A DNA stretch of 64,000 nt from the human T2T-CHM13v2.0 reference genome, Homo sapiens. This document shows, one piece after another, positions 9,471 through 41,100 of the stretch (its first letter is position 1; every line of letters begins with the position of its first letter). The stretch lies in the NCBI RefSeq assembly GCF_009914755.1, contig NC_060926.1; one strand, written 5' to 3'. The translations under genes and the position numbers were made by a program. The notes below the pieces were generated by a model. That model did no database searches and had not been told where the DNA came from. It saw only the letters and a list, made by a program, of their open reading frames with translations.

Positions 9471-9499
9471 CAGATACATGTTTTCACATAACTTAAGTA

Positions 9500-9843
9500 C
9501 TGTCATCCCCTGATAGCTGTAGGGGATTGGTTCCAGGAATCCCCAAAGATATCAAAATTCAGGGGTGCTCAAGGTCTTTATATAAAATGGTGTAATATTT
9601 GCATATAACCTACACACATCCTCCCATATATTTTAAATTATTTCTAGATTACTTATCATAACTAGCACAATGTAAATATTATGTAAATAGTTCTTATGCT
9701 GTATTATTTATGGAATAATGACAAGAACAATAAGTCTATACGTGTTCGGTATACATGCAACCATCCATTATTTTTCATATATTTTTGATCTCTGGTTGGT
9801 TAAACTTATGGATACACAACCCACAGAGAGAGAAGGCCAACTG
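9500..9843. mobile_element. MER2 (Tigger-derived MITE)
   Basis: GGGGATTGGTTCCAGGA..ATATTTGCATATAACCTACACACATCCTCC..GGCCAACTG, TA on both sides. Confidence 0.85.
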
Positions 9844-10885: not shown

Positions 10886-10955
10886 TTTATCACCATCTTT
10901 GAAAGATCCAAGGATGTTCTTGGCAGTGCAAATCCCTCAAAGGAAGTCATTTCAG
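10886..10955 (+). CDS. FSIP2: FSIP2 coding exon (70 nt; FITIFERSKDVLGSANPSKEVIS)
   Basis: TTACCTTGGCAG acceptor, CAG|GTAC donor; phase 0 in, phase 1 out; peptide visible inside ORF 10784-11014. Confidence 0.92.
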
Positions 10956-12162: not shown

Positions 12163-12299
12163 AAACTCCCAAGCCCGATGTCTCCAAACAAGGATCTAAA
12201 ATGCTGACAAAAATGTCTTCAGCTTTGTCAAAGGTGTTTTCTCAATGTAACACCAATATTTCCAGATCTTCCTCACCAGCTCACCAGGATGAACACTGA
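12163..12299 (+). CDS. FSIP2: FSIP2 terminal coding exon ((E)TPKPDVSKQGSKMLTKMSSALSKVFSQCNTNISRSSSPAHQDEH*), fibrous sheath-interacting protein 2 C-terminus
   Basis: CTTTGTCCACAG acceptor, open frame to TGA at 12297-12299; C-terminus recognised as FSIP2 from memory. Confidence 0.92.
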
Positions 12300-12340
12300 A
12301 GCTTTTGTACCTGATATAAGTATGCTTACTTCTTTTAGAA

Positions 12341-12346
12341 AATAAA
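12341..12346 (+). terminator. Polyadenylation signal of FSIP2 (very short 3'UTR)
   Basis: AATAAA 41 nt after the stop codon. Confidence 0.75.
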
Positions 12347-14192
12347 ATGGTTTTTAAAGCATAGTATAGCGTCTTATAAGATGATTCCTATACTACTGAA
12401 AATAAAAGCAAAAGGAAGTGTAGAAGGGACCAGGCAAAGAAGGGTTTAACAAATGCTTTGAATAAGCATTTTGATGTAAGAAATGTTAATAATTAGTATT
12501 ACCTGTGTGCCATGAGAGTAAGTGACTAAACACATAATTATTAAACTAGACAACTCACAGTACCCACCAGAAAATGCACATTGATTGCTCCTGCTAAATT
12601 TTAGAGGATGTTGTTACCAGGACAGTTATTAAATTGAGATGAAAACCAAGCTGAAAATGAAACTATGTCACGGATAAGTTTATTGTTAAAGGCATATTTA
12701 GATACTCGAATAAAAGGATTTATACCAGATAAATTTTTCCCACCTGAAAGTAAAGTTAATTTAGTTTATGTCTCCCAGGCAAAATGATCCAACTGTAGAC
12801 AAAGCACCATTTGAAAGTAAATGATAACTATATATAATTCCATATATGCATAAAATGGCCCCTGTGATAAAAAAAATCCTTGCAAGTAACGTACCTCTTA
12901 TGGATAAAATATCAATCAAGAAATCATTGGTCAATAAAGTTATTAAATAATTTTCAGAAATATTATACACGAATATAGAGATCAAGATCCATTTGTAAAA
13001 ACAAAAGTAATGGGAAAAATTTAATAATATGGCTAGCTAGTGCAGTGATAAAAGAAATTTTTCAAAATTAGCTGAACTTGCTACTTTGTGATAAAGTTCC
13101 AATGTCAGCATGTTTGCCTCTGGAATCCAAGGATGTTTTATAAAGAGATTCAACAGATGGACCAAGAAGCTGGGAAGGAATGTCAAATATCATCACCCAA
13201 AAAGGGTGACTCATGAATTTTTAGAGAATGTGTATTCTGTTTTATCTAAAATTTTCTTGACAATTGCCACTAATAAAGCAGAAACTTCTGAAAAAGTTTT
13301 GTTTTAAAACAACAAACTTCCTTTAATGAAGTTGATCTGTGCAGTAATGACAGGGAAGAAAAAAGTGATTACCTAGTCAAATTTTTACATATAAATAATA
13401 AAATTATTTAACTGGCAATTTAGTCTACTTATAATAATCTCTTAAAAACAGATTAATCCCAAAGATCATACAAAATTGCCGAACTTGTGGATGCAGACCT
13501 TTTAAAAAATGATGGTTGGTGAGAAATAGCTGGAAATTCATCTCTGAATTATTTTCAAAAGAGCTGACTCTACATCAGTTTGCATTAGTTGACAGTGTTG
13601 TTGAAAGCATTCTTACAGATGTCATCCAAACCAATGATGTTTCCCAAACTTAGATATTACGTGCTTATAAGCTGTCTTTCAACGTAACATTTCACTGTAA
13701 AAATTTAAAGCACTGTGATTCACATACTTATCAACTGAAAAATGTAATATATAAACATAAGATACTCTGAATTAAGAGGGTTTTTAATGGTGAAGGTAAT
13801 TTCCTGTTTTCTCTGACTCAAGTAGAGGAAGCAACATCAAGTTCAGAATTAGTCCTTGAAGTTGACAACATTTTAGTAAGGAATGGTTAATGTTATTGAG
13901 AAATTTAAGTCCTAGGAAAAACCATCCAGAAATACTTCTGTGTTAGACATCATGTATGTGAAACATCATCTTTATTTTCAACAAAACTAGTAGGGTAAAT
14001 GTGCTAAAAGTATCAAACACTGAATTGAAAAAATGTGTATTATTACCTGATAAAACCTGTAGTGGCTAAAATCTCTAAAAGTAACATTAGTCTTCTAGCT
14101 AATGACTAATGCTAAAGCAGAAGAAAGTTTTTAAGATTCATAAAATTTAAATTATTCCTTAGGTTGTTGATTCTTTCTATGTTTTACTAAAA

Positions 14193-14505
14193 TGGACTGG
14201 AAAACATTTTGTGTGAAAGGCTAGAAAGTAGACATTTTAGGTTTGTAGATTCTCTGTCAAATCTACTCCATTATGCTATTGTAGCACAAAACCAACCATA
14301 TACAACACATAAACAAATAAATAGATGTGGATGTGATTCAATAAAAATTTCTTTATAAACACTGAAATTTGAATTTCATTTAATGTTACATGTCATAACA
14401 TAGAATTTTTCTTTTGATTTTTTTCAATAATTTGAAAATATAAAAATTATTCTTAGGTTTATTAAAGACAAGTGACAGGACAGCTTTAGCCCATGCTGAT
14501 TTCTG
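14193..14505. mobile_element. MER58 (hAT-Charlie MITE)
   Basis: MER58-like body (AAAGGCTAGAAAGTAGACATTTTAGG..AAACACTGAAATTTGAATTTCAT); 8-bp TSD TACTAAAA/TACTATAA. Confidence 0.72.
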
Positions 14506-14597
14506 TACTATAATAATTTGGAACTCATGAATAAGCTTATTTTTATATGAAGGTACTGATTATTGACTTAAAATAATACTAGTAAAGGTTCAAATTC

Positions 14598-15474
14598 TGT
14601 TGCGGGAAGTCAGGGACCCTGAATGGAGGGACAAGCTGGAGCTGCGGCAGAGGAACATAAATTGTGAAGATTTCATTTTAATATGGACATTTATCAATTC
14701 CCAAATAATACTTTTATAATTTCTTACACCTGTCTTTAATCTCTTAATCCTGTTATCTTCATAAGCTGAGGATGTATGTCACCTCAGGACCACTGTGATA
14801 ATTGTGTTAACTGTACAAATTGATTGTAAAATGTGTGTGTTTGAACAATATGAAGTCAGTGCACCTAGAAAAAGAACTAAATAACAGTGATTTTTAGGGA
14901 ACAAGGGAAGACAACCATAAGGTCTGACTGCCTGCGGGGTTGGGCAAAAAGAGCCATATTTTTCTTCTTGCAGGGAGCCTATAAACAGACCTGCAAGTAG
15001 GAGAGATATCACTAAATTCTTTTCCTAGCAAGGAATATTAATATTAACACCCTGGGAAAGGAATGCGTTTCTGGGGGAGGTCTATAAACGGCTGCTCTGG
15101 GAGTGTCTCTCTTATGTGGTTGAGATAAGGACTGAGATACGCCCTGGTCTCCTGCAGTACCCTCAGGCTTACCAGGGCAGAGTTTTTCCCCACCCTAGTA
15201 AGCCTAGTAAAAGTAGTTCTCCTTTTTGCCCTTTGAAGCATATGATCTACTCCCTGTTCTTACACCTCTTCCCCTTTTGAAACCCATAATAAAAAACTTG
15301 TGGGTTTGAGGCTTAGGTGAGCATCACGGTCCTACCGATACGTGATGTCACCCCCGGTGGCCCAGCTGTAACGTTCCTCTCTTTGTACTCTTTCTGTTTA
15401 TTTCTCAGCTGGCTGACACTTATGGAAAATAGAAAGAACTTATGTTGTAATATTGGGGGCAGGTTCCTCTGATA
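14598..15474 (+). mobile_element. MER11 solo LTR (HERV-K11/HML-8)
   Basis: Begins TGTTGCGGGAAGTCAGGGACC, ends GGGGGCAGGTTCCTCTGATA; perfect 6-bp TSD AAATTC (14592-14597 / 15475-15480). Confidence 0.92.
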
Positions 15475-15607
15475 AAATTCCATTACAAAAATTAGTTTGC
15501 ATAGTTCAAATGTTGATTTCTTTAGTGATTTACTTATTGAATATATTGTTGAAAAGGTATATGAGCATGCTGCTAAAATATACTTTGAGTTAGAAAAAGA
15601 AGAGTTA

Positions 15608-15901
<294 letters not shown>

Positions 15902-17279
15902 AAAGAAGAGTTAGATCAAGATTTAATTTGTAGGTAAATTTCTAGTTCAAAATTCTTTCTTACTTTGAGAGTAGCCAATCAAAATGGATGCAGACATAAA
16001 ATCAGAAGACTTGATAGTCATTGTTGTAAAAGAAATAAACAAACTAAAACCCCAGTTAATATTGCAGCAAAATGGTGGAGCAGGCAGCTCCAAGCTCTTA
16101 TCATCCCACAGAAAAATAAGAAAAAATATGTCAGAAGCAACTTCTTCAGAACTCTGAAAAACAGTCAAAAGTTTACAGCTATTAATCAAACACTGAATCA
16201 AGAAACATAGGAAAGATTTGTGGTATATTTACTTGCCCTTGCCCAAACCCTTTTCTCAACCCAGTAGCAGTCTTGAACAAAGGAGTCTACATTCCAGTGT
16301 GGGGCCTTTTTGAGACAGCACAGCAGATCTTATTCTAAAATTACTGTGTATGTCTGTTCTCAACTTTCTGTGTGCCACATGTACAGCTGAAGCAAGGCAC
16401 TTGTTTCTGTTTTATCTACCTGGGAACTCAGACTGGAAAAGCAGTGGACATTGCTCAAAAACACTGCAAACCAAATAACAACCTGGAGATGCTTGAGGCA
16501 AAAATTAACCAAAGAACCAGAAAAAAAAAAACTGGGGAGAAAATCTTCTAAGAAATTAAGATGCCCACAGCTTCTATGTGGGGGAACTTAGAAAGCCATG
16601 CACATGTATACGGGAAGATCTATCTTCAGAAAAGAACAAAAATAATGTAAGATTTTTACCTCAGGTTTCTCCTTTGGCTCTGTGCAAGCTTAGTTAAGAA
16701 TTGAAGGAGTTCCTTAGCACAGATCTGATAAGCACAGACTGGGAGATATATTTTTAGTTGTTTCCTTGTTTGCTTGTTTGTTTTGTTTTTGTTCTTTAAA
16801 TACTGGAGTTCAAGGAAATCTCTGTGAAAACTCTAACTGAATACCAGGAATGGATACTTCAGTGATCACACAAGGAAGAGTCTTTACAAAAATACACTGT
16901 CAAATACACTGTCAAGACACTAAACAAATAAACCACTAAAGCCTTCAGCAGTCGAAAAACAACAACTCCAGGAAAAGAGGAATATCTGATTTCCATAGTT
17001 ACCACATAGTATTATTATGCCCAATTTTGAAAAACAACTACAAAAATCACAGGAAATACAAAGAAGCAGGAAAGTATGGCTCATTTAAAGGAACAAAATA
17101 AATAACTAGAAGCCATGCCTAAGGAAGTTTATACTTTGGATTAATTATATGAAGACTATAAAACAACTATTTAAAAAATACTAAAAGAGCTAAAAAATAC
17201 ATAGACAAAGAATAAAATAAATCAAGAAAATAATACAAATATTAATAAAGAGAGAAAACTATAAAAAGAAAGTAAACAT

Positions 17280-17496
17280 TCACTGTGGAAAAGTTTGGAG
17301 GTTCCTCAAAAAACTTAAACATGGAATGACCACATAATCTATTATTTTGTCTTCTCAGTATACACCCAAAATAATTGAATGCAGGGATTTAAACGTATAA
17401 TAGTACACCAATGTTTACAGCACCATTTTCCACAAAGCTAAATGTGAAAGAAATCCAAATTTTTAATCAGTAGATGAATAGATAAACAAAATATAG

Positions 17497-17540
<44 letters not shown>

Positions 17541-17962
17541 AGAGAGAGAGAAACCCAATGGAGTCTTAAATTCAGTCTTAAAAAGCAATGAAATTCTGAT
17601 ACATTTTACAAAAAGGAAGAAGCTGGAAAACATTATGCTAAGTGAAAAGGAGACACAAAAGATAAAATGTTGTTCCACTTCTATGGAGTACATAGAGTAG
17701 ACAAATTTATAGAAAAAGAAAGGAGAAATAAAAAGTAGAAAAGAAAGTAGGAAAAAGTAGAAAGTACAGTTGGAGAGAGAGAGGAATGGGAAGTTATTGT
17801 GTAATGAGCACAGTGTTTCTGTTTGTAATGATAACTTCCGGTAATGAATAGAAATGATAATCACAAAACAGGTGAATGTACTTAATGTTAGGGAACTATA
17901 CACTTAAAATCATTAAAATGATAAAAATGGAAAATTTTATGTATTATATATGTTACCACAAT
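17280..17962 (+). mobile_element. L1MB-type 3' fragment
   Basis: CACTGTGGAAAAGTTTGG..AACATTATGCTAAGTGAAA..GTGAATGTACTTAATG..TACCACAAT. Confidence 0.7.
17498..17550. repeat. Compound (TG)n(AG)n microsatellite
   Basis: About 19 TG units followed by about 7 AG units. Confidence 0.95.
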
Positions 17963-19389
17963 AGCAGAAAGGAAATCACATAGAAATTCTGAGGCTGAAA
18001 AATACCATAACTAAAAGAAAAAAATTACTAGAGGGATTCAATAGCAGAGTTTGAACACATAGAAGAAATAATCAGTGAACTTGAAGACAGAACAATTGAA
18101 ATTATTTATTCTGAGAAATAGAAAGAAAAAATAATGAAGAAAAGTAAACAGCCTAAAGGACCTAAGAAAAACCATCAAGAGACCAAAGAATGTAAGGAGG
18201 AAAAATAATATAAGACGAAATAATTTTAAAAACTTATAAATTTGGCAAAAGACATAAATCTGTAAATCCAAACAGCTCCAAGAACTCAAAGTAGAATAAA
18301 CTCAAAGATACTCACACCAAGACACACTATAATCAAAATGTCAAAAGCCAAAGATAAGATTCTGGGAAGGTAGAGTAGAAAGCACAAGAAGTCTCTCACC
18401 TTGCCTAGACAACAATTTTACTGGCAGAATATGGCTGATGTAACTATTTTGGAACTCTGGCATTGACTGAAAGTTGATATATTTTAGAATAAGGCATGGA
18501 TGCTAAATTGCAGTTAATTTCAATTTCTTAGCACAGTAGAAGCTACCTATTTGAATTCCCATTCTGGTGGCAGGCAGCTGTGCTCATGTTCTTGGAGGAA
18601 TCTGCACACAACTTGAGGGAGCACAGGTTGGCAAGGAGGACCACTTCCTCCAAGTTTCATGAGTGTCATCTCTGATCACTGATTGCTGAATCTCATTAAA
18701 GAGGTACAGACAGAGGTGGGTGGTAATTGTTGCTGCACTTTCTTGCATTGTGAAAATGATTTCACTTCCAGCTAAAGTGATTTCCAAGATTTGAAGGACT
18801 GATGGGTCTTTCATCACCTTAAATTTTTCTCCCTTTTTGGGAGCTAGACATTAAACACTAGACATTAGAAAGCAATGCATATACAAAGAAAATAATAAAG
18901 TGATCATACATGCTCAGGAAAAGGTACAGTCTCAGAAAAGACCTGAGAAGACCTTAAGTTTACATCTCAGGCAGATCCTTGGGATACAGAAAGCCACAAT
19001 TAAAAAAAAAATAACTAAAAACAGCAAACTAGGAAGGGGATGATGTGATTTCCACAATTATCACATTTCTTAGATTCAAATGTCCAGTTCCAGTGAAAAC
19101 TCACAAGGCATACAAAGAAACTTGAAAGTGTGGCTCATTCAAAGGAAAAAAAATAAATCAACAAAAATTGTTATTTAAAAAGGCCTGACAGCAAATATAC
19201 TAGAAAAACACTTAAAAACAACATTCTTAAAGATGCTCAAAGATATAAAGTTAAAACTGTGTATGAACAAAATCAAAATATTAATGAAAGACATAGAAAA
19301 CTAAAAGGAAAACAAAAAGAAATTCTAGAGGCAAAAATTACAATAACCTAAATAACACATTTACTAGAGAGATTCAAAAGTGGGTTTGA

Positions 19390-20031
19390 TGTTCCCCTTC
19401 CTGTGTCCATGTGTTCTCATTGTTCAATTCCCACCTATGAGTAAGAACATGCGGTGTTTGGTTTTTTGTCCTTGCTATAGTTTACTGAGAATGATGATTT
19501 CCAATTTCATCCATGTCCCTACAAAGGACATGAACTCATCATTTTTTACGGCTGCATAGTATTCCATGGTGTATATGTGCCACATTTTCTTAATCCAGTC
19601 TATCATTGTTGGACATTTGGGTTGGTACCAAGTCTTCGATATTGTGAAAAAAAAAAAAAGAAAATGCTATCTGTGTAAAAAAATACTTACCATGGTATTT
19701 ACTTGTAGTAGTGAAAAAAATTAAATACCTTAAATGTTCAAAGTAATAGTTAATTACAATGTATATGGAATAGTGTATATATATTAAAGATAATGGTTAT
19801 GCAGATGAACTGTTGGAAATGGATACAATAATTGAGAAAGGATACACATGCCTATGTACAGCATGAGTATGTTAACGAAAAGTAACTATCAATTGATTGC
19901 TTTGGTACACATATATGTATATACCCATGTAAAAATCTTTCATCTCAATTCATTAGTGCTTTTGTTTGTAAGCAATACACATAGAAATGTATTTTCCTTT
20001 TAATTAACAATAAAGTTTAAGTTATAGAAAA
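19390..20031 (+). mobile_element. 5'-inverted short L1PA insertion with 3' transduction
   Basis: 14-bp TSD AAAAGTGGGTTTGA (19376-19389 / 20032-20045); antisense L1PA 3' piece 19390-19646, A-run 19647-19659, ~370 bp foreign DNA, AATAAA at 20009-20014, second A-tail. Confidence 0.88.
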
Positions 20032-20792
20032 AAAAGTGGGTTTGAGCAGGCAGAAGAAAAAACCACAAACTTGAAGATGGAACAATGAAAATTAATTAGT
20101 CTGAGGAATAGATTTAAAAAATTAAAGTGAAGTGAACCTAAGGAACCTGTAGGTCACCATCAAGTGGATCAATGTATGCATTTTGTGAGTCCCAAATGGA
20201 AAAGACAGGGAAAGGGGGAGAAGGAATATTTGAAGAATGTCTGAAGACTTCCCACATTTGATGACAGATGTGAATATAAACATCCAAAGTCAATAAACTC
20301 CAAGTAAGATGATCTCAAAAAGAACCACATTGAGACATGTTATAATTATATTTTCAAAAGACAATGAGAATTTTGAAACCAGTAAGAAAGTAGTGACATG
20401 TCACAGGAATTCTCAATAAGATTGTCAGCAGATTTCTCTTTTTTTAAAAAAAGCATAAGTTCTGAGGTACATGTGCATAACGTGCACGTTTGTTACATAG
20501 GTATACACGTGCCATGGTGGTTTGCTGCACCCATCAACACATCATCTACATTAGGTATTTCTCCTAATGCTATCCCTCCCCTATTCCCCCACCCCACGAC
20601 AGGCCTGGTGTCTGTCCAAGTGTCCCCTCCCTGTGATCCTCTCCCTGTGTCCAAGTGTTTTCATTGTTCAACTCCCACTTATAAGTGAGAACATGCGGTG
20701 TTTGGATTTCTGTTCTCATGTTAAGTTTGCTAAGAATGATGGTTTCGAGCTTCATCCATGTCCCTGCAAAGGACATGAACTCATCCTTCTTT

Positions 20793-26826
<6,034 letters not shown>

Positions 26827-29134
26827 TGAACTCATCCTTCTTTATGGCTGCTTAGTATTCCATGGTATAGATGTGCCAAATTTTCTTTATCCAGGCTATC
26901 ATTAATGCGCATTAGGGTTGGTTCCAAGTCTTTGCTATTGTCAACAGTGTCACAATAAACATATATGTGCATGTGTCTTTATATTAGAATGATTTATAAT
27001 CCTTTGGGTATATACCCAGTATTGGGATTTCTGGGTCAAATTGTATTTCTAGTTCTAGATCCTTGAGGAATCGCCACACTGTCTTCCACAATGGTTGAAC
27101 TAATTTGCACTCCCAACAGTGTAAAAGTATTCCTATTTCTCCACATCCTCTCCAGCATCTGTTGTTTCCTGACTTCTTAATGACTGCCATTATAACAGGT
27201 GTGAGATGGTATCTCAATGTGGTTTTGATTTGCATTTCTCTAATGACCAGTGATGATGAGCCTTTTTTCATGTCTGTTGGCTGCATAAATGTCTTCTTTT
27301 GAGGAGTGTCTGTTCATATCCTTCACCCACTTTTTGATAGGGGTGTTTCTTTTTTTCTTATAAATTTGTTTAAGTTCTTTGTAGATTCTAGATATTAGCC
27401 CTTTGTCAGATGGATAGACTGCAAAAAATTTCTCCCATTCTGTAAGCTGCATGTTCACTCTGATGATAGTTTCTTTTGCTATACAGAAGCTCTTTGGATT
27501 AATTAGATCCCATTTGTCTATCTTGGCATTTGTTGCCATTGCTTTCAGTGTTTTAGTCATGAAGTCTTTTCCCATGCCTATGTCCTGAATGGTATTGCCT
27601 AGGTTTTCTTCTAGGGTTTTTTGTGGTTTTAGGTCTTACATTTAAGTCTTTGATCCATCTTGAGTTAATTTTTGTATAAGGTGTAAGGAAGGGATCCAGT
27701 TTCAGCTTTCTGTATATGGCTAGCCAGTCTTCCCAACACCATTTATTAAATAGGAAATCCGTTCCCCATTGCTCGTTTTTGTCAGGTTTGTTAAAGATCA
27801 AATGGTTGTAGATGTGTGGTGTTATTTCTGAGGTCTCTGTTCTGTTCCATTGGTCTATATCTCTGTTTTGGTACCAGTACCATGCTGTTTTGGTTACTGT
27901 AGCCTTGTAGTATAGTTAGAAGTCAGGTAGCGTGATGCCTCCAGTTTTGCTCTTTTTGCTTAGGATTGTCTTGGCTATGCGGGCTCTTTTTTGGCTCTAT
28001 ATGAAATTTGAAGTGTCTTTTTCCAATTCGGTGAAGAAAGTCAATGGTAGCTTGATGGGGATAGCATTGAGTCTATAAATTACTTAGGGCAGTATAGCCA
28101 TTTTCATGATGTTGCTTCTTCCTATCCATGAGCATGGAATGTTTTTCCATTTGTTTGTGTCCTCTCAAATTTCCTTGAGCAGTGGTTTGTAGTTCTCCTT
28201 GAAGAGGTCCTTCACATCCCTTGTAAGTTGTATCTCTAGGTAATTTATTGTCTTTGTGGCAAACATCAGAGCAGAACTGAAGGAGATAGAGACATAAAAA
28301 GCCCTTCAAAAAAAAATCAATGAATCCAGGATCTGTTTTTTTTAAAAGATCAACAAATAGATAGACCACTAGCCAGACTAATAGAGATAAAAAGAGAGAA
28401 GAATCAAGTAGATACAGTAAAAAATGATAAAGGGGATATCACCCCCGGTCCCACAGAAATACAAACTACCATCAGAGAATACTATAAACACCACTATGCA
28501 AATAAACTAGAAAATCTAGAAGAAATGGATGAATTTCTGGACACATACACCCTCCCAAGACTAAACCAGGAAGAAGTTGAATCCCTGAATAGACCAATAA
28601 CAAGTTCTGAAATTGAGGCAGCAATTAATAGCCTACCAACCAAAAAAAAAAGTCCAGGACCAGACAGATTCACAGCTGAATTCTACCAGAGGTACAAAGT
28701 GGAGCTGGTACCATTCCTTCTGAAACTATTCCAAACAATAGAAAAAGAGAGAATCCTCCCTGACTCATTTTATGAGGTCAGCATCATCCTGATACCAAAA
28801 CCTGGCAGAGACATAACAAAAAAAGAAAATTTCAGTCCAATATCCCTGATGAATATCGATGTGAATATCCTCAATAAAATACTGGCAAACCAAATCCAGC
28901 AGCACATCAAAAAGCTTATCCACCATGGTCAAGTCGGCTTCATCCTTGGGATGCAAGGCTGGTTTAACATGCCCAAATCAATAAATATAATCCATCACAT
29001 AAGCAGAACCAATGACAAACACCACATGATTATCTCAATAGATGCAGAAAAGGCCTTAGATAAAATTCAACAGTGCTTCATGCTAAAAACTCTCAATGAA
29101 CTAGGTATTGATGGAACATAACTCAAAATAATAA

Positions 29135-29308
<174 letters not shown>

Positions 29309-30594
29309 TAATTAGGAAAAGAGGAAGTCAAATTGTCTCTGTTTGCAGATGACATGATTGTACATTTAGAAAACCCCATTGTCTCAGCCCAAAATCTCCT
29401 TAAGATTGTCAGCGGATTTTTCATTAAAACTTTGGAGGTCAGAGTGCAAGGGGTCAGTATATTGAAACTGCTAAAGGAGAAAAAAAAAAAAGCCAAGCAA
29501 AATTGTCCTTCAAATGTGACAAAGAAAATTAAGACATATTCATATGAACAAAAGCTAAAGAATTTTCTTACCACTAGACCTACTCTGCAAGAAATGCTCA
29601 AGGAAGTCCTGCAGGATGAAATGAAAAGACAATAGACAGTAATTCAAAGCCATATGAAGAAATAAAATGTACATAAACATAAATACATTGGAAATTATAA
29701 AAGCTAGTATTAATGTAACATTTATAATACCATCTTAGTTTTCTACATGATTTAAGGTACTAACGTATTTTAAAAACAATTGTCTAAAAGCTAGTACTAT
29801 TGTAACTTTGGTTTATAACTTCACATTTATACTTTAAGAGAAGAATGCATTTAAAATATCACTTTATACTTTTAGACCCACAATGCATAAAGGTGTAACT
29901 TTGTGACAATAACTGAAAGTGATAGGGACAAAACAATGACAGAGCAGAGATTTTGTAAATCACTGAAGTTAAAATAGTATAATTCTAATTAAGTTATTGT
30001 AATTTTAGAATGTTAAATGTAATCTTTATGGTGACTAGAAAGAAAATACCTTAAAATACAAAAGTAAATGAAAAAGAAAGTTAAATATTTCATAACAAAA
30101 AATTAAACATAAAAAACAGGGATGCAGGAAATGAGGGACAAAGAAGTGATAAATCATATAGAAAACAAATAGCAAAATGACAGAAGTATGTCTTTCCTTA
30201 TCAGTCACTACTTTAAGTGTAAATGAATCAAACTGTTTCAAATCAAAAGACAAAGACTGACAGACTAGATTTAAGAAAACATGATTCAATTTTATACTGT
30301 CTACAAGAGACTCCCTTTAGTATCAAAGACACAAATAGATTGAAAGTTGTGACATAGGTGACAACATGGATGAAGCTTGAGCACATTATGCAAAGTGAGG
30401 TAAGCCAGTCACACAAACACAAAAACTGTATGAATTCACATAAATGAGATACTTAGAGTCTTAGCTGAAATTATAGAGACAGAACGTAGAATGGTGGTTG
30501 GCAAGGGCTGGAGGGCTTAGCATGAAAAGATATTGTTTAATGGGTTAAGTTTCAGTTTTACAAGACAAAAAGTGTTAAGGAGATGGATGGTGGT

Positions 30595-32711
<2,117 letters not shown>

Positions 32712-33494
32712 GTGGTGATAGCTGCACAATATTATGAATGTATTTAATACCACCGACATATAAACTTTTAATATGATTCCAATTGTACATTTTATGTTAT
32801 GTGTATTTTACTACAATTTTATAAATTTGGAAAAAAAGGCAATCATAAAAGCAGTGTCAGAAGAGACTCCTCATGTTCATGTACAAGGATTCTCAATAAT
32901 ATTTAAAGTTGTTAAAAAATTGTCAACTAAGAATTCTATGCCTCATAATTTCTTATAAGATACGCTTAAAAGTTGAGGGAGCTTGTTAGCACTAGACTTC
33001 TCCTGTAAGAAATGACAAAGGGAGTCCTGCAAGTTAAAATGAAAGTCACTAGACAGTAAGTCAAAGCCACATGAATAAATAAAATTCTGGCAAAGGCAAA
33101 TACATAAATAAATACATAAGTAATAAAATACTTTTATTTTATTAAAAATAAAAGATATTATATTTTTGATTTCTAATTACATTTTTCATTTTCTACAGAA
33201 TTTAAAAGGCAAACTTATGAAAATAATTATAAATCTATGGTGTTGTCCACACAATATATTCAAAAGCCATTTGTGACAATATACAGGGAAATGGGGAAGA
33301 TTAAGCTGTATAGGAGCAGAAATTCCCCATGCTACTGAAGTTAAATTGAGAGCAATTAAATTGTATGTTATAAATTATAATGTTAAATGTAATCTCCATA
33401 GTATACATTAAGACAATATTCAAAATAAATATATGAAAGAAAATGAGAAAGGAATCAAACTACAAAAAAATCAACTAAACACAAAAGAAGATAG

Positions 33495-34991
33495 TGTTCT
33501 TAGTTCATTTGGGCTGCTATAACAAAAATATTTTAGATGGGGTAATCTATAAACAAAAGATTTTTCCACAGTTCTGGAAAGCAGAAAGTCTGTGATCAAG
33601 GCACCAGCAGATTAGGTGTCTGGTGAGGGCTTGCTCTCTGCCTCAAAGTGGTACTCTCTTCTTGTATCCTCACATGGCAGAAGGGCCAAATGCTGTACCC
33701 TCAGATGGCAAAATGAGCAAAGCAGTCCATGAAATGTCTTTTATAAGAGCACAAATTTCATTCATAAAATTTGCTCTCTCGGGCATCCTTTAAAATTTAG
33801 GTGGAAGTAGCCACACCCCTAAAACTCTCCAACTCTGTGTATCTCCAGAATAAGCATTACACTGATGCCAGCATGGATTACTACAATGTGCCTTCCAAAG
33901 CGGAAGCCGCTGTGGCCTGCACTGCTCCTTGGTCTACTTGAGCCACATCTGGGACAACTAAGGAGCACTATACCAGAATGTGGGGAGCAGAGACTTACGT
34001 AAAGTACCAGGAGTACCCAAGACTCCCCTTTTGTCATTGTTTTGCCCGTAGGCCTTGGCACTCTGAGCCTGCGATGGGAGGGGCAGCATCAATTATCTGC
34101 AAAATGCCTTCAGGATCATTTTTTCACTGTCTTGATAAATAACTACTGGCTTCCTTCTGTTTATATTAATGTTATCAAATGTTTGTTCAGTCACACCCTT
34201 TAGAAGTCAATAAAAGTCATGCTACACCGTCAACACTATGCTTAGATGTATCTTTCACCAAATATCCTATTTCATCACTCACAAGTTCTACTTTCCATGA
34301 AACACCAGGGCATAAACAAAATTTAGCCAAGTTTTTGCCACATTAAAACAAGGATGTCCTTCTAGTTTCGAATGACATGTTTCCCATTGCCATACAAGAC
34401 TTCATTACCTTCATTGTCCATATTCCTATCAAATTTTCCTCATAACCTTTCAGATAGTCTCTAAGATTCTGGCATTCTCCACAACTCTATTCTCCTGGGC
34501 CCTCACCAGAATCAACCTTAACACTCTGTTTTTTGCAAATGTACCACATAACTCTTCCAGAATTATTTATTATCCAGTTCTACGGCTGCTGGAACATTTT
34601 TAGGTATTTATTACAGCAGCATGCTGCTTCTTGGTACCCATTTTTGTCTCGGGTGTTGGCTACTGTAAAAAAAATACCTTCGACTAGAAAATTTATGAAA
34701 AACAGAAATTTATTGCTCATAGTTCTGGAGACTGGGAAGTCTAAGATAAAGGTGCCAGCAGATTTAGTGTCTGGCGAGGGCTTCATAGATGGAGACTTGT
34801 TAGTGTCCTCACATGGTAAAAAGGTCAGAGGGTTCTCTCAAGCCCCTTTTATAAGGGCACTAGACTCATTTATGAGAGCAGAGCATTTATGACTTAATTT
34901 TCTCCCAAAGGCCCCAGTTCTTAATGCTACCAAAATGGGGATTAAGTTTCACCATGAATTTTGGAAGGACATAAATATTCAGACAATATCA
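33495..34991 (-). mobile_element. MaLR provirus (MLT1A-like LTR-internal-LTR, partly deleted)
   Basis: LTR motif AAGG(C/T)(A/G)CCAGCAGATT..GTGTCTGG(T/C)GAGGGC at ~33600 and ~34750; MaLR internal-like sequence between. Confidence 0.72.
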
Positions 34992-34995
34992 CCAG

Positions 34996-35402
34996 TGTGT
35001 TAGGCCATTTTTGAGTTGCTATAAAAAAATGCCTGAGATTCAGGGTTTAATTTGTCATACATTTCTGCAGGCTGTACAAGTATAGGACCAACATCGGCTC
35101 AGCTCCTTGTGAGGGCTCAGGAAGCTGACCATCATGGCTGAAGGCAAAGGGAAGCCAGCATATCATGTGGCAAGAGCAGGAGCAAGAGAGAGAGAGAGAG
35201 TAGGAAGATACCACACTCTTTTAAATAACCGGATCTCATGTAACTGCCAGAGTGATAATTCACTGATCACCAAAGGGATAAGGCTAAGCCATTCATGAGA
35301 GATCTACCCCCATGACCCAAACACTTCCCACAAGGCCCCAACTGCAACACTGGGAATTACATTTCAACAAGATTTAGAGGTGACAACATCCAAATTATAT
35401 CA
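34996..35402 (-). mobile_element. MSTB-type solo LTR
   Basis: TGTGTTAGGCCATT..GAAGGCAAAGGG..CCCCCATGACCCAAACAC..ACATCCAAATTATATCA. Confidence 0.8.
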
Positions 35403-36687
35403 AGCAGTAATGGGAAAAATTAGGGGGGGGAAGCTACCAGACATACAGAAAACAAATAGTAAAATGGTAAAAGTTCTTCTTTATTAGTAATTACTTCAAA
35501 TGTAAATATATGAAAGTCTTCAATCAAAAGACAGAAATTAGCAGAATAACAAAAGACACACACAAAAAACATGATCCAACTATATGCTGCCTTACTCTGG
35601 ATCCAAAGAAACAAATTTTTCAAAAAAGAATGGAATAACACATTCCACGAAAATATTAACCCAAAGAAACTTTGGGTGGCTATACTAATATCACACAAAA
35701 TAGACTTTTGGTCACCTACTGTTCCAAGACCAAAGAATGACACTACATATTGATGAAATGGTCAGAATTCAGTGGATAAATAGTTCTTAAATAAGTTCAA
35801 TATACCACTTTCAATAATGAATAAACATCTAGACTGACCAATAAGTAATTAGAGGATCTTGAACAAAACTATAAACCAATGAGACCTAGTAGATATATAG
35901 AACATTTCCCTCAACAACAGCAGAATACACAAGTGTACCTAGAACATTCTTCAGAATAGACCATATGTTATGTCACAAAACACACCTCCATAAATTTTAA
36001 AATGTAGAATTTTACAAAGTAGCATTTCTAAACAAAATGGAATGATGTTAGTTATCAATAAGTATAGGAAAAATGAAAAATTTAACAAATATTTGAAAGT
36101 TAAACAACACACTATTAATCAATAGAGTCAAAGAAGAGATCACAATGGGGGTCAGAAAATTCATATAAATTTTTAGAAAAATTATAATAAATAGTAACAA
36201 AACATAACAAAGCTTGTGGAATGCAGCAAAGGCAGTGCTCACTGGGAAATTTATAGCAGTAAACGTCTACATTAATTAATAATATATATAAAATCAATAA
36301 CCTTAACATTACATGTTGAGGTAGAAAAATAAGAGCAAAATAAACTCAAAGCTATTCAAAAGAATGAAATAAGGGATTAGAGTAGAGATAAAGTAGAGAA
36401 TAGACAAATAATAAAATCAATGAAGTAGAAAATTGTGTTTTTGAAAATATCAACACAATTGACAAACCTTTAGCTAGACTGACGAAATGTTGAGTAAACT
36501 TTATCACTAATGTGATGCTAGCTTCGGAATTTTTATAAATCTCCTTTATTATATTGATGAAGTTTCTTTATTTTTCTAGTTTCCTGATGGTTCCTGCCAT
36601 GAAAGAGTAGTAGTTCTTGTCAAATGTCTTTTCTGCCTCAATTGAGATGACCATGTTGTTTTTCCTCTTAATTGTATTAATGTGGCG

Positions 36688-37113
36688 TGTATTAGTTTCC
36701 TAGGGCTATTATAACAAAGTACCACAAATTAAATGGGTGAAAAAATATAAATCTATTGTCCCAGTTCTAGAGACAAGAATGCTGAGATCAAAGTGCTGGT
36801 ATGATTGTGCTCACTCTGGAGGCACAGGAAAGTATATGTTCCAGGCTTCTCTCCAAGCTTCTGGTAGCTGCTTGTCTTGACACAAGTATTCACATGGTAT
36901 TTTCCTTTTGGTGTGTGTCTTTCTCTTCACATCACATTCCTTTTTAATAAGAACATCAGTTACATTGGTTTAGGGACCCACCTATTCCAGTGTGACTTCA
37001 TCTTAACTAGTAATTACATCAACAAAGACTCCTATTTCCCAATAAAGCCACATTATAAGTTACTGGGGATTGAAACTTTAACTATTTTGAGGGAGTGCTA
37101 TTAACCCCTACCA
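36688..37113 (-). mobile_element. MLT1B/C-type solo LTR
   Basis: TGTATTAGTTTCCTAGGGCT..ACAAAGTACCACAAA..CCCCTACCA; 5-bp TSD TGGCG/TGGTG. Confidence 0.8.
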
Positions 37114-37699
37114 TGGTGTGTTAAATTGATTGGTTTTCTTAATTTGAACAACCCTTGCATTTCTGGGATAAACCCCACTGAGTTGTAGTTTAAAATCTTT
37201 TTAATATGCTGTCAAATTTAGTTTTATAGCATTTTTGTTAGTTTTCTCCCTATCTATATTCACAAGAAATATCAGTGTTTAATTTTGTTTTCTTGTAATG
37301 TTTTTATATGGCTTAATATCTAGGTAATGCTGACCTCCTAGAATGAGTTAAGAAGTGTTCTTTCCTCTTTTATTTTCTTAAGATTTTGAGATGAATTGGT
37401 GTTAATTTTTTCTTAAATGTTTGGTATAACTCACCAGTGAATTCATCTCTTCCTGGACTTTTCTTTGTTGGAAAGTTTTAATGTTTAACCACAGCTATTC
37501 AACAACTTATTACAAATTTCAACCAGAACAATTAGACATTTACAAAAATGAAATGCATCGAAATTGGAGAGGAAGAAGTCAAACTGTGTCTATTTTCAGA
37601 TGAGAAGAAAAATTCTGTGTATATAGCAAATCCAAAAGAATCCACAAAAAGGCTAAAAGAGCTAACAAACAAATTCAGCAAATGTCCATTATGCAAGAT

Positions 37700-37734
37700 A
37701 CACACACGCGCACACACACATACACACACACACA
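37700..37734. repeat. Imperfect (CA)n microsatellite
   Basis: ACACACACGCGCACACACACATACACACACACACA. Confidence 0.9.
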
Positions 37735-37780
37735 AATTATGTTTCTACGGACCTGAAATAAATATTTTTTAATGTAAGAA

Positions 37781-38150
37781 TGTATATTAGTCTATTTTGC
37801 ATTGTTGTAAAAGATACTGGGTAATTTATAAAGAAGAGAGTTTTATTTGGCTGAAGGTTCTGCAGGCTATACATGCATGGCACTAGCATCTCCTCAGCTT
37901 CTGGTGAGTTCTCAGGAAGGTTTGACTCATAGTAGAAGGCAAAGGGAGAGCAGGTGTGCCATATGGCATAAAAGGGAATGAGACATGCCAGCCTCATGTA
38001 AACAACAAAATCTCACATAAACTCATTACTGTGGGGAAGGTACCAAGCCATTCGTGAGGAATTCACCTCCATAACCCAAACACCTCCCACCAGGCCCTAG
38101 ATCAAATGTCAATATGAGGTTTGGAGGGGACAAACATCCAAACTATACTA
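37781..38150 (-). mobile_element. MSTB-type solo LTR
   Basis: TGTATATTAGTC..GGTTCTGCAGGCTATACA..CCCAAACACCTCCCACCAGGCCC..ACAAACATCCAAACTATA. Confidence 0.78.
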
Positions 38151-41100
38151 GAAAGTAATTCCATTTACAATAGCATCTAAAAAAATAAAATACATGGGAA
38201 TAAATTTAAAGAGATGAAAGGCACTACAAAGAATACATCATTGCTGAAAGAAATTAAAGAAGAGCTAAATAAATGGAAAGACATCCTTAGTTCATGGGTA
38301 GGAAGATTCAATATTATTAAGATGTCAATATTACTCAAAGTGATCTACAGATTCAACATAATTCCTAGCAAAATTCCAATAGCTTTTTTATGCAGAAATA
38401 AAAAAGCTAATGCTTACATTCATAAGAAACTATACAGGGTCCCAAATAGCCAGACCTTGAAAAAGAAGGACATTGTGAGAGGAATCACACTTCCCAATCT
38501 CAAACCTTTTTACAAAGTTACAGTAATCAAAACTGTATAGTAATGGTATATCAAAGAACAATATCAAGAGAGTGAAAAGACAATTTACAGAATGGGTGAA
38601 AATATTTTCAAATCATACATCTGATAAAGGTATAAAATCCAAAATATATTGTAAAAACTCCTACAACTCAACAACAAAAAGGAAAAAACAACTGGGCAAA
38701 GGAGGTGAATAGACATTTTTCCAGAGGAAATATACAAATGAGCAAAAAGCACATGCTATGATGTTCAACACTATTGGGAAATTCAAATCAAAACCACAAT
38801 GAGTCACCACTTCATGCAGACTAGAATAACTACTAAAAATAAATAAACAAAATAAAAATAAAAACAGAAAATAAGTTTTGTCAAGTATGTGGAGAAATTG
38901 GAACACATATATTGCTAAATGCAGGCTAAATGCAGAATTATTACATGACCTAGCAATTCCACTTCTAGGCATATACCAAAAAGAAGGGAAAATATAAACT
39001 CAATCAAATATTTATACATTAATGCTCCTTGGAGTATTATTTGCAATAGCCAAAAGGTGAAAACAACCCAAAAATCTATCATCAAGTGAATGGACAAAAA
39101 AAGTCATATATACATACAATGGAATATTATTTAGCCATCAAAAGGAATGAAGCCCTAATACATACTACGACATAGTTGAACCTTCTGAACATTATGCTAA
39201 GTAAAATAAGCCAGATGTAAATGATAAATATATAATTTCATTTAAATGAGATATCTAAAATAGCAAACTTGCAGACAGAAAGTTGATGAGAGGTTACCAG
39301 GGGCTAAGTTTGAGGGTAAGAACAGAAAGTTACTGCTTAATAGACAGAGTTTCTGTTTGGAATGATGAAAAAGTTTTGGAAGTGTTGATTGCTGCACAAC
39401 ACTATGAACATAATGCTACCGAATTTTACAATTAAATATGGTTAAAATGGCAAGTATTGCCACAATAAAATTAAAAAAAAATCCTCAACTTCTTGGGAAA
39501 CTGAAGACAGTTGTATTTATTAAGGACAGGACATAACACAATTGAATTGAGAAGAGCATCACTAAATGGAAAGAGTTACTTATTAGGCTGAGTAATGCTG
39601 GCTCCTAGAATGAGTTAAGAAGAAAAGAAAACAAAAGACCTATCTCACTGAGTAATCTAGATAATTGGATGTAAAATTCTTAGAGGTAAATGAGAAAAGT
39701 AGTGATGAGAATAAATGAGTGTGTAGTGAGACATTATCAACTGCCTTCCTTAAACTGGGCTCTGGTAATGGGAATATAGTAAAACTGACTGACATTTTAA
39801 TCCTCATTGGCTGTGTAGGAGAAATGTGATCTCTTGGTTTCTATAGCTCTTTGTCATGAAATTTATTATCATAGCACAGTAGGAGCGCAAAGGTGCTAGT
39901 AATCAGAATATCAGATAAATGAATCTTTACTATAGTTTTAAATCCTCAAAGTTAATGTTCCACAGTAATACTGTTCATATTTTAACATTAATTAGACTTT
40001 AAACTTTAGACTTCTTTCACTTTATCTTATTTTGCTTTTATTATATAAGCCCTACATTTTCACGTCCTCATTATGTACCCTATTTCTTTCCCCTATTACC
40101 TTGCCCCAAACTCAGCTGTCCAAATGCCAATTTCTTGCACAAGTTTATCTCATACTCTATTTTTCAAAAGCACAGATTCCATGACCAATTCCAATGTGCA
40201 GTTTCTTTCTGCAACATGGTCAGAAATGCTATTATATAAAAATACAAGTAAATTCTATGCTGTTTCCCCTAGATAATACCAGATTCTACTTTGTATAATA
40301 CTGGACTTGTATTTATTTCCAAAAGAAGAAGACATTACTGAACCAACACATTGCTTTCTACACAGAATTGTGAATTCACCTTCATTTATCCATGAGGATC
40401 TGATTTGATCTGCTAGTTACATTCAGTTAAAGTAATTTAAAAATATAAATCTAAGATGTAAGTTATACATATGGCAAGACAGAGGTCTTGATAATACATT
40501 GAGGAAGCCAGTGTTCAGTCCCTCAATCTCTGCTGACTACTTTCTCATTTCTCCATTCCCTGACTCCCTACTATGGTCACTATCTATACCTCACCTTTTC
40601 ATCTCCTCCCCCATTGCTGTTTACCTGAGTTGTACTTATTTTCTTGATACCTGTTTTTCTATGCATCAAATTTCTGCTAATGTGTTAGATTCTTTAATTG
40701 GGAGACAAGTGTTTGTTGAGTCAACTATACTAGAGTGCTTGCACTACTGGCCCCCAAATTCCCTGATTTATAGCTTGTATTTTGTCTTTAGTATTCAACT
40801 TATTCATTTTATAAATCTAAGTTCCCTCAAACTTGTAAACATAATTTACAATCTGGTATGGTCACTTGTAAATATACTAATTTGTGTTACAAGTGCTTAC
40901 TTTTACTTGTATTCTTTGTTTCATGCTCAATTACCTTACCATTTGGACAGTGGAAAACTGCCTTAAACATTTACCATGGTTTAAAAATTTTATTAATTCC
41001 TTAAAACATTTCAGACTACATGAAAAAAACAGTCCATTTTTCTCAAGAATTCAATACATCTACATCTAAATCTAGTCAACATATGCTTCCTAACATTTAC

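What the first reader, a model, noticed from the sequence alone, without database searches (positions are those of the whole stretch)
12540..40416. Hidden tandem 'shadow' copy of the FSIP2 3' region starting ~200 bp after the FSIP2 poly(A) signal
Seen: removing TSD-bounded insertions (MER58, MER11, Alu) and the 16040-39481 L1 stack leaves a continuous, frameshifted protein-like sequence on the + strand. It ends at an intact GT donor (39686), and a further pseudo-exon follows at ~40323-40416. Knowledge (FSIP2 sequence from memory): pieces match in order, e.g. SACLPLESKDV = SACLPLESKDV; HEFLENVYSVLSKIF ~ HKFLENVISALFSKIF; QVEEATSSSELVLEV ~ QVEEEVSNSELVLEA; RTGHNTIELRRASLNG ~ RTGHSIAELRRASISG; TEPTHCFLHRIVNS ~ TEPTHYFIHRIMSS. 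Inference: an ancient intron-retaining tandem duplication of the end of the giant exon plus later exons. It was either a lost paralogue or a lost alternative C-terminus of this sperm fibrous-sheath protein. The ORF track barely shows it (only 13110-13307).
Basis: partly seen in the sequence, partly recalled or inferred. Interest (0 to 1): 0.85.

Follow-up and report, generated by a model that had tools for sequence, protein, structure and literature searches.

The report
Decayed partial duplicate of FSIP2's end
Just past the end of the human sperm-tail gene FSIP2 lies a broken, roughly 100-million-year-old partial copy of the gene's last large exon and one later exon, cut up by mobile-element insertions; it is an ordinary dead pseudogene, partly annotated already.

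Summary
Ten collinear DNA matches (64-72% identity; E from 3e-6 to 1e-90) link window 12542-40452 to FSIP2. They cover the last ~2.5 kb of giant exon 17, its GT donor, a piece of intron 17, and the exon carrying TEPTHYF, which is exon 19. An old interspersed repeat, an LTR-like element, an Alu and a 23.4-kb LINE stack interrupt the copy.

Retained intron sequence and the donor make it an unprocessed genomic duplicate, not a retrocopy. It carries 16 stops in 570 codons and 29 frame-breaking indels. Exon 18' is missing and exons 20'-23' were not found.

Protein trees and site patterns place its origin in the eutherian stem, near the FSIP2/FSIP2L split. A position outside therians is rejected (p-AU 0.002).

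Its branch shows no codon-position bias: (pos1+2)/pos3 = 1.17, 95% CI 0.91-1.57, against 0.58 for FSIP2. It therefore looks neutral since birth. This argues against a long-lived paralogue or alternative C-terminus.

RefSeq already annotates 12662-14189 as an FSIP2 pseudogene (LOC100420895). Only the extension across the insertions and the dating are new. Interest is low.

The parts
12542..14105 (+). Pseudo-exon 17', main block. It is the counterpart of FSIP2 exon-17 residues ~2303-2941, with a shadow-specific loss of ~82 codons (parent -13084..-12835).
   Evidence: Five collinear blastn HSPs at 64-71% identity, best E 1e-90. tblastn hits in order. Pfam FSIP2 hits. The deletion is specific to the shadow. 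RefSeq LOC100420895 covers 12662-14189.
14198..14460 (.). Old interspersed repeat inserted into the pseudo-exon.
   Evidence: 39 other genomic places listed at 70-82% identity, from 563 first-look candidates. Absent from the parent exon at this point.
14595..15476 (.). Younger repeated element of ~880 bp, LTR-like.
   Evidence: About 40 genomic copies match at 90-93% over its first ~580 bases, most with a second matching piece at 76-89%; 2131 first-look candidates, 40 scored.
15478..15608 (+). Pseudo-exon 17' fragment, counterpart of parent -12221..-12090.
   Evidence: blastn 64% identity, E 1e-9. tblastn aa 3012-3045, 44% identity.
15610..15898 (+). Alu insertion with poly(A) tail and a flanking direct repeat.
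   Evidence: 81% identical to the Alu at parent -9735..-9436. The parent stretch -12106..-12090 aligns on both sides of it, which indicates a target-site duplication.
15898..16031 (+). Pseudo-exon 17' fragment, counterpart of parent -12106..-11974.
   Evidence: blastn 69% identity, E 4e-12.
16032..39478 (.). 23.4-kb stack of LINE-type retrotransposon copies on both strands, splitting the pseudo-exon. It ends in a poly(A) run at ~39470-39481.
   Evidence: Pfam RVT_1 and Exo_endo_phos on ORFs at 22577-24855 (- strand), and RVT_1 at 28324-29118 (+ strand). Many L1-to-L1 hits. Poly(A) seen.
39479..39685 (+). Last part of pseudo-exon 17', counterpart of parent -11977..-11788.
   Evidence: blastn 68% identity, E 4e-17, running 25+ nt into the intron. 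tblastn aa 3092-3151.
39686..39687 (+). Retained GT splice donor of exon 17'. The shadow has TTAGAG|GTAA against CTAGAG|GTAA in the parent.
   Evidence: Sequence.
39881..40094 (+). Remnant of intron 17, counterpart of parent -11413..-11184.
   Evidence: blastn 67% identity, E 3e-6 and 7e-5. Window 39800-40280 has no other match in the genome at E <= 0.001, so this is not an interspersed repeat.
40322..40416 (+). Pseudo-exon 19', counterpart of parent -5550..-5450. It has a 6-nt deletion, an in-frame TGA and a lost donor (GT to TT); the G of the acceptor AG is missing in the alignment.
   Evidence: Alignment. blastn 72% identity over 183 nt including flanks, E 4e-26. The exon number comes from the Aotus protein tails.

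Best explanation
This is a non-functional, unprocessed (DNA-level) partial duplicate of the 3' part of FSIP2.

In the stem lineage of placental mammals, a genomic segment was copied to a site about 180 bp downstream of the FSIP2 transcript end. The segment began inside giant exon 17, near residue 2303 of that exon, and ran at least through exon 19.

The copy had no promoter, no upstream exons and no acceptor of its own, so it was dead on arrival. It has drifted neutrally since. It picked up stops, frameshifts, an ~82-codon deletion and a deletion that removed exon 18' with most of introns 17 and 18. It also received four rounds of mobile-element insertion: an old repeat, an LTR-like element, an Alu and a LINE stack.

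Shown here: the homology, its order, the retained intron and donor, the disablements, the neutral substitution pattern, and the placement after the marsupial split.

Inferred: the mechanism (tandem or local duplication), the absolute date, and the absence of any function.
For: 1. Homology and order. Ten of 15 blastn HSPs form one collinear chain from 12542 to 40452. tblastn hits run in the same order. Pfam FSIP2 hits fall in the right profile order.

2. Genomic copy, not a retrocopy. The GT donor is retained at 39686. The match runs into the intron. A 214-nt intron-17 remnant is present and is single-copy in the genome. The intron flanks of exon 19' also align.

3. Broken. Over 1782 aligned exonic nt, the p-distance is 0.292 and K2P is 0.378. 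There are 36 indels, 29 of them not multiples of three, and 16 stops in 570 codons.

4. Neutral since origin. Differences from the parent are flat across codon positions: 0.307, 0.269 and 0.301. In a three-way decomposition with FSIP2LP, the branches are FSIP2 0.093, shadow 0.279 and FSIP2LP 0.172. The (pos1+2)/pos3 ratio is 1.17 (95% bootstrap CI 0.91-1.57) for the shadow and 0.58 (0.37-0.91) for FSIP2.

5. Age.
- At 43 sites where the eutherian and marsupial consensus differ, the shadow has the eutherian state at 27, the marsupial state at 0 and another residue at 16.
- The AU test rejects a position outside therians (delta lnL 13.7, p-AU 0.002).
- Of 22 catarrhine-derived states it shares 1, against 8 ancestral and 13 other.
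- An old repeat, whose copies are only 70-82% alike, sits inside it.

6. Only two FSIP2-like loci besides the gene itself were found in this genome: this one and FSIP2LP on chrX.
Against: - No other mammalian genome could be read, so presence across eutherians and absence in marsupials is inferred from protein trees, not seen at the locus.
- The shadow is a very long branch (0.85 substitutions per site). Its exact position changed between analyses: sister to FSIP2 with 84-89% UFBoot in the 22-taxon IQ-TREE, but sister to FSIP2L with SH-like 0.99 in the 63-taxon FastTree. The AU test cannot separate these.
- The codon-position test cannot exclude a short early functional phase. The lower CI bound of 0.91 leaves room for a minority of substitutions under constraint.
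- The expected copies of exons 20-23 and of the 3' flank were not found. A strict tandem duplication is therefore unproven, and the original 3' limit is unknown.
- 14106-14197 plus 14461-14594 could not be shown to be FSIP2-derived.
- Transcription was not tested.
Confidence: 0.85

Rival explanations
1. Once-functional unit. The copy served for a substantial time as a tandem FSIP2 paralogue or as an alternative 3' end of FSIP2, and was lost later.
For: The donor GT of exon 17' is still intact. FSIP2 itself is weakly constrained here: human versus bat proteins are about 70% identical, and the FSIP2 ratio is 0.58. A weakly selected copy would therefore be hard to tell from a neutral one. The bootstrap CI of the shadow ratio (0.91-1.57) does not exclude a brief constrained phase.
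Against: The shadow ratio is 1.17, and its CI barely overlaps that of FSIP2 (0.37-0.91). Its branch is three times as long as FSIP2's. The copy starts in mid-exon, so no acceptor, upstream exon or promoter was copied with it. It lies beyond the gene's poly(A) site. None of the 82 database relatives retrieved with the FSIP2 C-terminal query, of which 60 were placed in the tree, groups with it as a separate orthologue clade.
Confidence: 0.07
2. Relic of the birth of FSIP2L. The duplication that left this shadow is the same event, or the intermediate copy, that gave rise to X-linked FSIP2L (human FSIP2LP). The shadow would be what stayed behind at the source locus.
For: FSIP2, FSIP2L and the shadow diverge at practically the same point in the eutherian stem. 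Marsupial sequences fall outside all three. The 63-taxon FastTree joins the shadow to the FSIP2L clade with SH-like 0.99. The AU test does not reject that topology (delta lnL 0.65, p-AU 0.42).
Against: - IQ-TREE with 22 taxa puts the shadow with FSIP2 instead, at 84-89%, and that topology has the best likelihood.
- The shadow shares the FSIP2L state at 0 of 5 FSIP2L-derived sites.
- There are no clade-specific deletions relative to human FSIP2 that could serve as shared indel characters.
- FSIP2L proteins and FSIP2LP extend far upstream of the shadow's 5' limit, so a truncated copy cannot be their source as it stands.
- Long-branch attraction is a likely cause of the FastTree result.
Confidence: 0.06
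3. Processed pseudogene or chance/repeat artefact. The similarity comes from a retrocopied mRNA, or from interspersed repeats shared by both places.
For: Many of the 57 HSPs between the two regions are Alu or L1 matches. Exon 18 is skipped, as it could be in a spliced template.
Against: Exon 17' and exon 19' are separated by about 640 nt. That gap contains the retained donor and a single-copy intron-17 remnant. The intron flanks of exon 19' align. No poly(A) tail follows the copy. The exonic pieces match only FSIP2 and FSIP2LP in the genome, with E down to 1e-90.
Confidence: 0.02

Closest known systems
LOC100420895, 'fibrous sheath interacting protein 2 pseudogene' (RefSeq; window 12662-14189)
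   Same: It is the same object. The RefSeq span covers HSPs 2-5 of the chain, that is, the main block of pseudo-exon 17' (against the hub annotation).
   Different: RefSeq gives no exons and stops at 14189. The pieces at 12542-12637, 15478-15608, 15898-16031, 39479-39734, 39881-40094 and 40276-40452 lie outside it. These amount to about 1.0 kb, spread over 26 kb because of the insertions. In the paper library the locus name occurs in one paper only; I saw the search listing and did not open it.
FSIP2LP (HGNC:55625), unitary pseudogene of X-linked FSIP2L
   Same: It is the other FSIP2-derived dead locus in the human genome. It is also of eutherian-stem origin. HGNC describes it as degraded in situ, with intact orthologues in horse, pig, cat, dog and mouse (PMC9825485, one passage read).
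   Different: FSIP2LP was a full gene that died late. It has 52% amino-acid identity to FSIP2 and 12 stops in 806 codons, with a branch of 0.172 and a ratio of 0.92. The shadow is a truncated copy with no sign of ever being constrained: 48% identity, 16 stops in 570 codons, 29 frameshifts, and a branch of 0.279.
Unprocessed (duplicated) pseudogene fragments next to their parent gene
   Same: Local DNA-level copy, retained exon-intron structure, no promoter, neutral decay, and later transposable-element insertions.
   Different: Nothing in kind. It is unusual only for its age, which is close to the limit at which neutral DNA stays alignable, and for being split by a 23-kb LINE stack.

Membership tests
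Unprocessed (duplicated) pseudogene | Significant sequence homology to a parent gene, in the parent's order | tested here: met
   Ten collinear HSPs, best E 1e-90; tblastn hits in order.
Unprocessed (duplicated) pseudogene | Exon-intron structure of the parent retained (intron sequence, splice sites) | tested here: met
   GT donor at 39686. The match runs into intron 17. A 214-nt intron-17 remnant is single-copy in the genome. The exon 19' flanks align.
Unprocessed (duplicated) pseudogene | Disabling mutations (stops, frameshifts, lost exons or splice sites) | tested here: met
   16 stops in 570 codons and 29 frame-breaking indels. Exon 18' is absent. The exon 19' donor is lost.
Unprocessed (duplicated) pseudogene | Neutral substitution pattern | tested here: met
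   (pos1+2)/pos3 = 1.17 (CI 0.91-1.57), against 0.58 for FSIP2.
Strict head-to-tail tandem duplication reaching past the FSIP2 poly(A) site | Second copies of exons 20-23 and of the 3' flank (12364-12541) downstream of exon 19' | tested here: inconclusive
   Nothing above noise was seen for exons 20-23 with 60-nt flanks in 40417-64000; part of that output was cut from view. At E <= 1e-3 there were 22 HSPs between parent -5450..12541 and 40417-64000. I dropped 17 unseen as multi-copy, and the 5 kept do not fall in exons 20-23. Tiny exons at ~70% identity may be undetectable, and much of the region is LINE sequence.
Processed pseudogene (retrocopy) | Exons joined without introns, 3' poly(A), flanking target-site duplication | tested here: not met
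   About 640 nt containing intron-derived sequence lies between exon 17' and exon 19'.
Pfam FSIP2 (PF15783) sequence family | Match to the profile above the gathering score | tested here: met
   Fragment 13513-13650 scores 31.5 bits against a cutoff of 27. Fragment 13095-13304 scores 17.6 bits, below the cutoff. Two other fragments had no hit. The parent segment scores 1348.7 bits.

The most novel reading that the evidence does not exclude
FSIP2, X-linked FSIP2L and this shadow arose in one burst in the placental stem lineage. On this reading, the shadow is the in-situ remnant of the local duplicate from which FSIP2L was seeded before it moved to the X. That would give a physical 'fossil' of the birth of a sperm-tail gene family member. 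The trees leave the three-way split unresolved (AU p 0.70, 0.42 and 0.22), so this is not excluded.
Probability: 0.06. Interest if true: 0.35.

Novelty: already known. Interest (0 to 1): 0.14.

Why it matters
It matters little for biology. This is a textbook dead duplicate, and its core is already in RefSeq.

Three practical points follow:
- The pseudogene annotation could be extended to 12542-40452, with the insertions marked.
- Reads or variants from the FSIP2 exon-17 3' part are unlikely to mis-map here at about 70% identity.
- The locus gives a neutral calibrator beside FSIP2. It shows that this part of FSIP2 is only moderately constrained (ratio 0.58), and that FSIP2 and FSIP2L split after the marsupial divergence.

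Tried and rejected
- A 70-aa shadow ORF searched against the whole genome found only itself. It was too short and too diverged to reach the parent.
- A dynamic-programming alignment with very cheap gap extension gave 74.8% identity but scattered tiny blocks through the repeats. I discarded it as overfitted.
- A first tiling of the shadow by tblastn failed because of a duplicated option. Plain tblastn loses most of the copy at frameshifts. I replaced it with a nucleotide alignment mapped onto parent codons, with X at stops and gaps.
- A search for pseudo-exons 20'-23' found nothing convincing.
- A search for exon 18' found nothing: tblastn best E 0.91, blastn best E 0.01 on the wrong strand.
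- The leftover 14106-14197 plus 14461-14594 against the missing 182 nt of parent gave z = 1.1, not significant.
- A look for inverted or direct terminal repeats around 14080-14640, to check the 'MER58' call, was inconclusive. No repeat library was available, so no family names were confirmed.
- Site patterns to decide between shadow+FSIP2 and shadow+FSIP2L had too few informative sites. No clade-specific deletions were found.
- Full constrained ML searches timed out. I used fast searches instead.
- Exon 18/19 counterparts of FSIP2LP in chrX 128745001-128765000 gave only one weak hit with a cow FSIP2L tail (E 0.006). I did not pursue this.
- Human and chimpanzee 646-aa database proteins end inside exon 17, so they gave no exon map. 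Aotus proteins did.
- Literature: 'FSIP2' + 'pseudogene' gave 21 papers, of which I saw 15 listings and one passage. 'LOC100420895' gave 1 listing, 'FSIP2L' gave 3 listings, and 'FSIP2' + 'tandem duplication' gave 8 papers with 7 listed. By title and abstract, none describes this copy. Supplements were not opened.


Full report
**What was checked**

The window holds only the last four FSIP2 exons. I therefore fetched the 84 kb upstream from the same assembly. It contains two giant open exons on the + strand: 2985 aa at window -32311..-23357 and 3153 aa at -21225..-11767.

The true end of the second exon (exon 17) is at -11788, followed by GTAAGT. Tails of Aotus FSIP2 proteins mapped onto the human locus give the later exons:
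- exon 18 at -7274..-6864 (137 codons, open in human)
- exon 19 at -5550..-5450
- exons 20-23 as annotated in the window

tblastn with exon 17 hits the window in order. Residues 2356-2856 match 12641-13875, residues 3012-3045 match 15506-15607, and residues 3092-3151 match 39505-39700.

Sensitive blastn gave 15 HSPs. Ten form one collinear chain from 12542 to 40452 at 64-72% identity, with a best E of 1e-90. Three are Alu matches and two are weak off-diagonal hits.

The chain crosses the exon-17 donor. The shadow reads TTAGAG|GTAA at 39680-39689, against CTAGAG|GTAA in the parent. The chain then continues into intron 17 for about 25 nt. It resumes with a 214-nt intron-17 remnant (39881-40094 to -11413..-11184). 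It ends with exon 19 and its intron flanks (40276-40452 to -5595..-5414; alignment).

The intron remnant is not an interspersed repeat. Window 39800-40280 has no other match in the genome at E <= 0.001.

Pfam's FSIP2 profile (PF15783) independently recognises shadow fragments at the expected profile positions. One of them is above the gathering score.

**Anatomy**

The FSIP2-derived pieces are 12542-14105, 15478-15608, 15898-16031, 39479-39734, 39881-40094 and 40276-40452.

Between them lie four insertions:
- An old interspersed repeat at about 14198-14460. Thirty-nine other copies are listed at 70-82% identity, from 563 first-look candidates.
- A younger LTR-like element of about 880 bp at about 14595-15476. 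About 40 copies match at 90-93% over its first ~580 bases.
- An Alu at 15610-15898. Seventeen parent bases are duplicated on both sides of it, which indicates a target-site duplication.
- A 23.4-kb stack of LINE copies on both strands at 16032-39478. Pfam finds RVT_1 and Exo_endo_phos. A terminal poly(A) is visible.

About 226 nt (14106-14197 and 14461-14594) should correspond to 182 parent bases, but they are not significantly similar (z = 1.1).

The shadow has an ~82-codon deletion of its own.

It lacks exon 18 altogether. Parent -11184..-5595, which includes exon 18, corresponds to only about 180 nt of shadow. No exon-18 match exists anywhere in 12364-64000. Exon 18 is ancestral: homologues were found in 16 of the 83 stored proteins, drawn from the FSIP2 clade, the FSIP2L clade and turtles. 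Its absence here is therefore a later deletion.

Nothing recognisable follows 40507. Exons 20-23 with flanks give only noise; part of that output was cut from view. A search with the whole parent stretch -5450..12541 against 40417-64000 gave 22 HSPs at E <= 1e-3. I dropped 17 of these unseen as multi-copy, and none of the 5 kept falls in those exons.

**How it arose**

Retained intron sequence and a retained donor rule out a retrocopy. The copy begins in mid-exon, at parent -14317 (about residue 2303 of exon 17), 178 nt after the FSIP2 transcript end at 12363.

The simplest model is a local, tandem-type genomic duplication with one breakpoint inside exon 17. Whether it reached past exon 23 is open, because no 20'-23' or second 3' flank was found.

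**State and mode of evolution**

I mapped the eight exonic HSPs onto parent codons:
- 1782 aligned nt, p-distance 0.292, K2P 0.378
- differences of 0.307, 0.269 and 0.301 at codon positions 1, 2 and 3
- 36 indels, 29 of them not multiples of three
- 16 stops in 570 codons
- 48% amino-acid identity

The human genome contains one other FSIP2-like locus, on chrX. This is FSIP2LP, named by HGNC as a unitary pseudogene of FSIP2L (PMC9825485, one passage read).

Using it as a third sequence over 1628 shared sites, a star decomposition gives these branches:

| Lineage | Branch length | 95% CI |
|---|---|---|
| FSIP2 | 0.093 | 0.070-0.115 |
| Shadow | 0.279 | 0.245-0.312 |
| FSIP2LP | 0.172 | 0.143-0.199 |

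The ratios of (pos1+2) to pos3 substitutions are:

| Lineage | Ratio | 95% CI |
|---|---|---|
| Shadow | 1.17 | 0.91-1.57 |
| FSIP2LP | 0.92 | 0.69-1.30 |
| FSIP2 | 0.58 | 0.37-0.91 |

The shadow therefore shows no trace of purifying selection. A short early functional phase cannot be strictly excluded.

**Age**

Database searches with the parent segment returned 33 longer and 49 similar-length vertebrate FSIP2/FSIP2L proteins.

In a 22-taxon IQ-TREE (LG+F+G4, UFBoot), turtles root the tree and marsupials are sister to all placental sequences. The placental sequences split into two clades. One is an FSIP2 clade with human, Aotus, bats, pangolins and vole. The other is an FSIP2L clade with FSIP2LP, Tupaia, hedgehog, cow and musk deer, at 100% support.

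The shadow attaches at that split, as sister to FSIP2 with 84-89% support and a branch of 0.85. A 63-taxon FastTree instead joins it to the FSIP2L clade (SH-like 0.99), while the node uniting all placental sequences has only 0.31.

An AU test on 26 taxa, using fast constrained searches, gives:

| Topology | delta lnL | p-AU |
|---|---|---|
| shadow+FSIP2 | 0 | 0.70 |
| shadow+FSIP2L | 0.65 | 0.42 |
| shadow+(both) | 0.81 | 0.22 |
| shadow outside therians | 13.7 | 0.002 (rejected) |

Site patterns agree:
- At 43 sites where the placental and marsupial consensus differ, the shadow has the placental state at 27, the marsupial state at 0 and another residue at 16.
- Of 22 catarrhine-derived states it shares 1, and of 15 primate-derived states it shares 3.
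- Sites that could separate FSIP2 from FSIP2L are too few to decide.
- There are no clade-specific deletions.

The copy thus dates to the placental stem, after the marsupial split and before the radiation of at least the sampled Boreoeutheria. My recollection of neutral rates on the human lineage, which comes from no call, makes a 0.25-0.31 branch roughly 100-160 million years. That fits.

**Comparison with what is known**

RefSeq already lists 12662-14189 as 'FSIP2 pseudogene' LOC100420895 (hub annotation). In the paper library that name occurs in one paper; I saw the search listing only and did not open it.

By the listings of four searches, no paper describes the copy's full extent or age. 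Supplements were not opened.

The finding is therefore a more complete anatomy and a date for a known, ordinary unprocessed pseudogene fragment.

**Verdict**

The ancient intron-retaining duplication is supported. The lost paralogue or alternative C-terminus is not. 'Hidden' is only partly true.

Confidence in the dead-on-arrival duplicate is about 0.85.

The boldest reading still open is that the shadow is the source-locus relic of the event that created FSIP2L. I put this at about 0.06.

Interest is low.

Noticed in passing
FSIP2 and FSIP2L proteins P0003-P0083; human chrX G000:C23:128764949-128780221: In both trees, placental FSIP2 and X-linked FSIP2L form two clades that split after the marsupial divergence. 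The koala, wombat and sugar glider sequences fall outside both. FSIP2L thus looks like a placental-stem innovation.
   Followed up: partly
Proteins P0004, P0031, P0035, P0036, P0045, P0048 (Aotus nancymaae): The owl monkey has at least five or six FSIP2-like predicted proteins, 76-85% identical to the human segment, and the search tables list different longest-contig lengths for several of them. This could be a lineage-specific amplification or an assembly or annotation artefact.
   Followed up: no
FSIP2 exon 17, G000:C2:186290353-186294480 (window about -19650..-15520): The C-terminal 800 residues match four or five other stretches of the same giant exon at 24-26% identity (E 4e-10 to 9e-21; a further hit has E 0.8). 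The exon is therefore built from ancient internal repeats of the FSIP2 domain.
   Followed up: no
window 22577-24855, - strand: A LINE copy inside the stack keeps long open pieces of ORF2: 439 aa with RVT_1 and 327 aa with Exo_endo_phos. It is much younger than its surroundings. The RefSeq 'enhancer' at 26057-26566 lies within the same repeat-masked block.
   Followed up: partly
human chrX, L015-L017 and L022-L024 (FSIP2LP): FSIP2LP covers 806 of 864 query codons at 52% identity, with 12 stops. Its codon-position ratio of 0.92 is already near neutral. That suggests it has been dead for a large part of its branch on the human lineage.
   Followed up: partly
Protein P0030 (2773 aa, source unnamed): This is an FSIP2-domain protein only 36-38% identical to human. 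It branches between turtles and mammals on a long branch, and its lineage is unknown.
   Followed up: no
window 42376-42466: A short element of about 70-90 nt matches two places in the FSIP2 introns (-581..-495 and -10365..-10302) at 77-82% identity. It is probably a small interspersed repeat.
   Followed up: no
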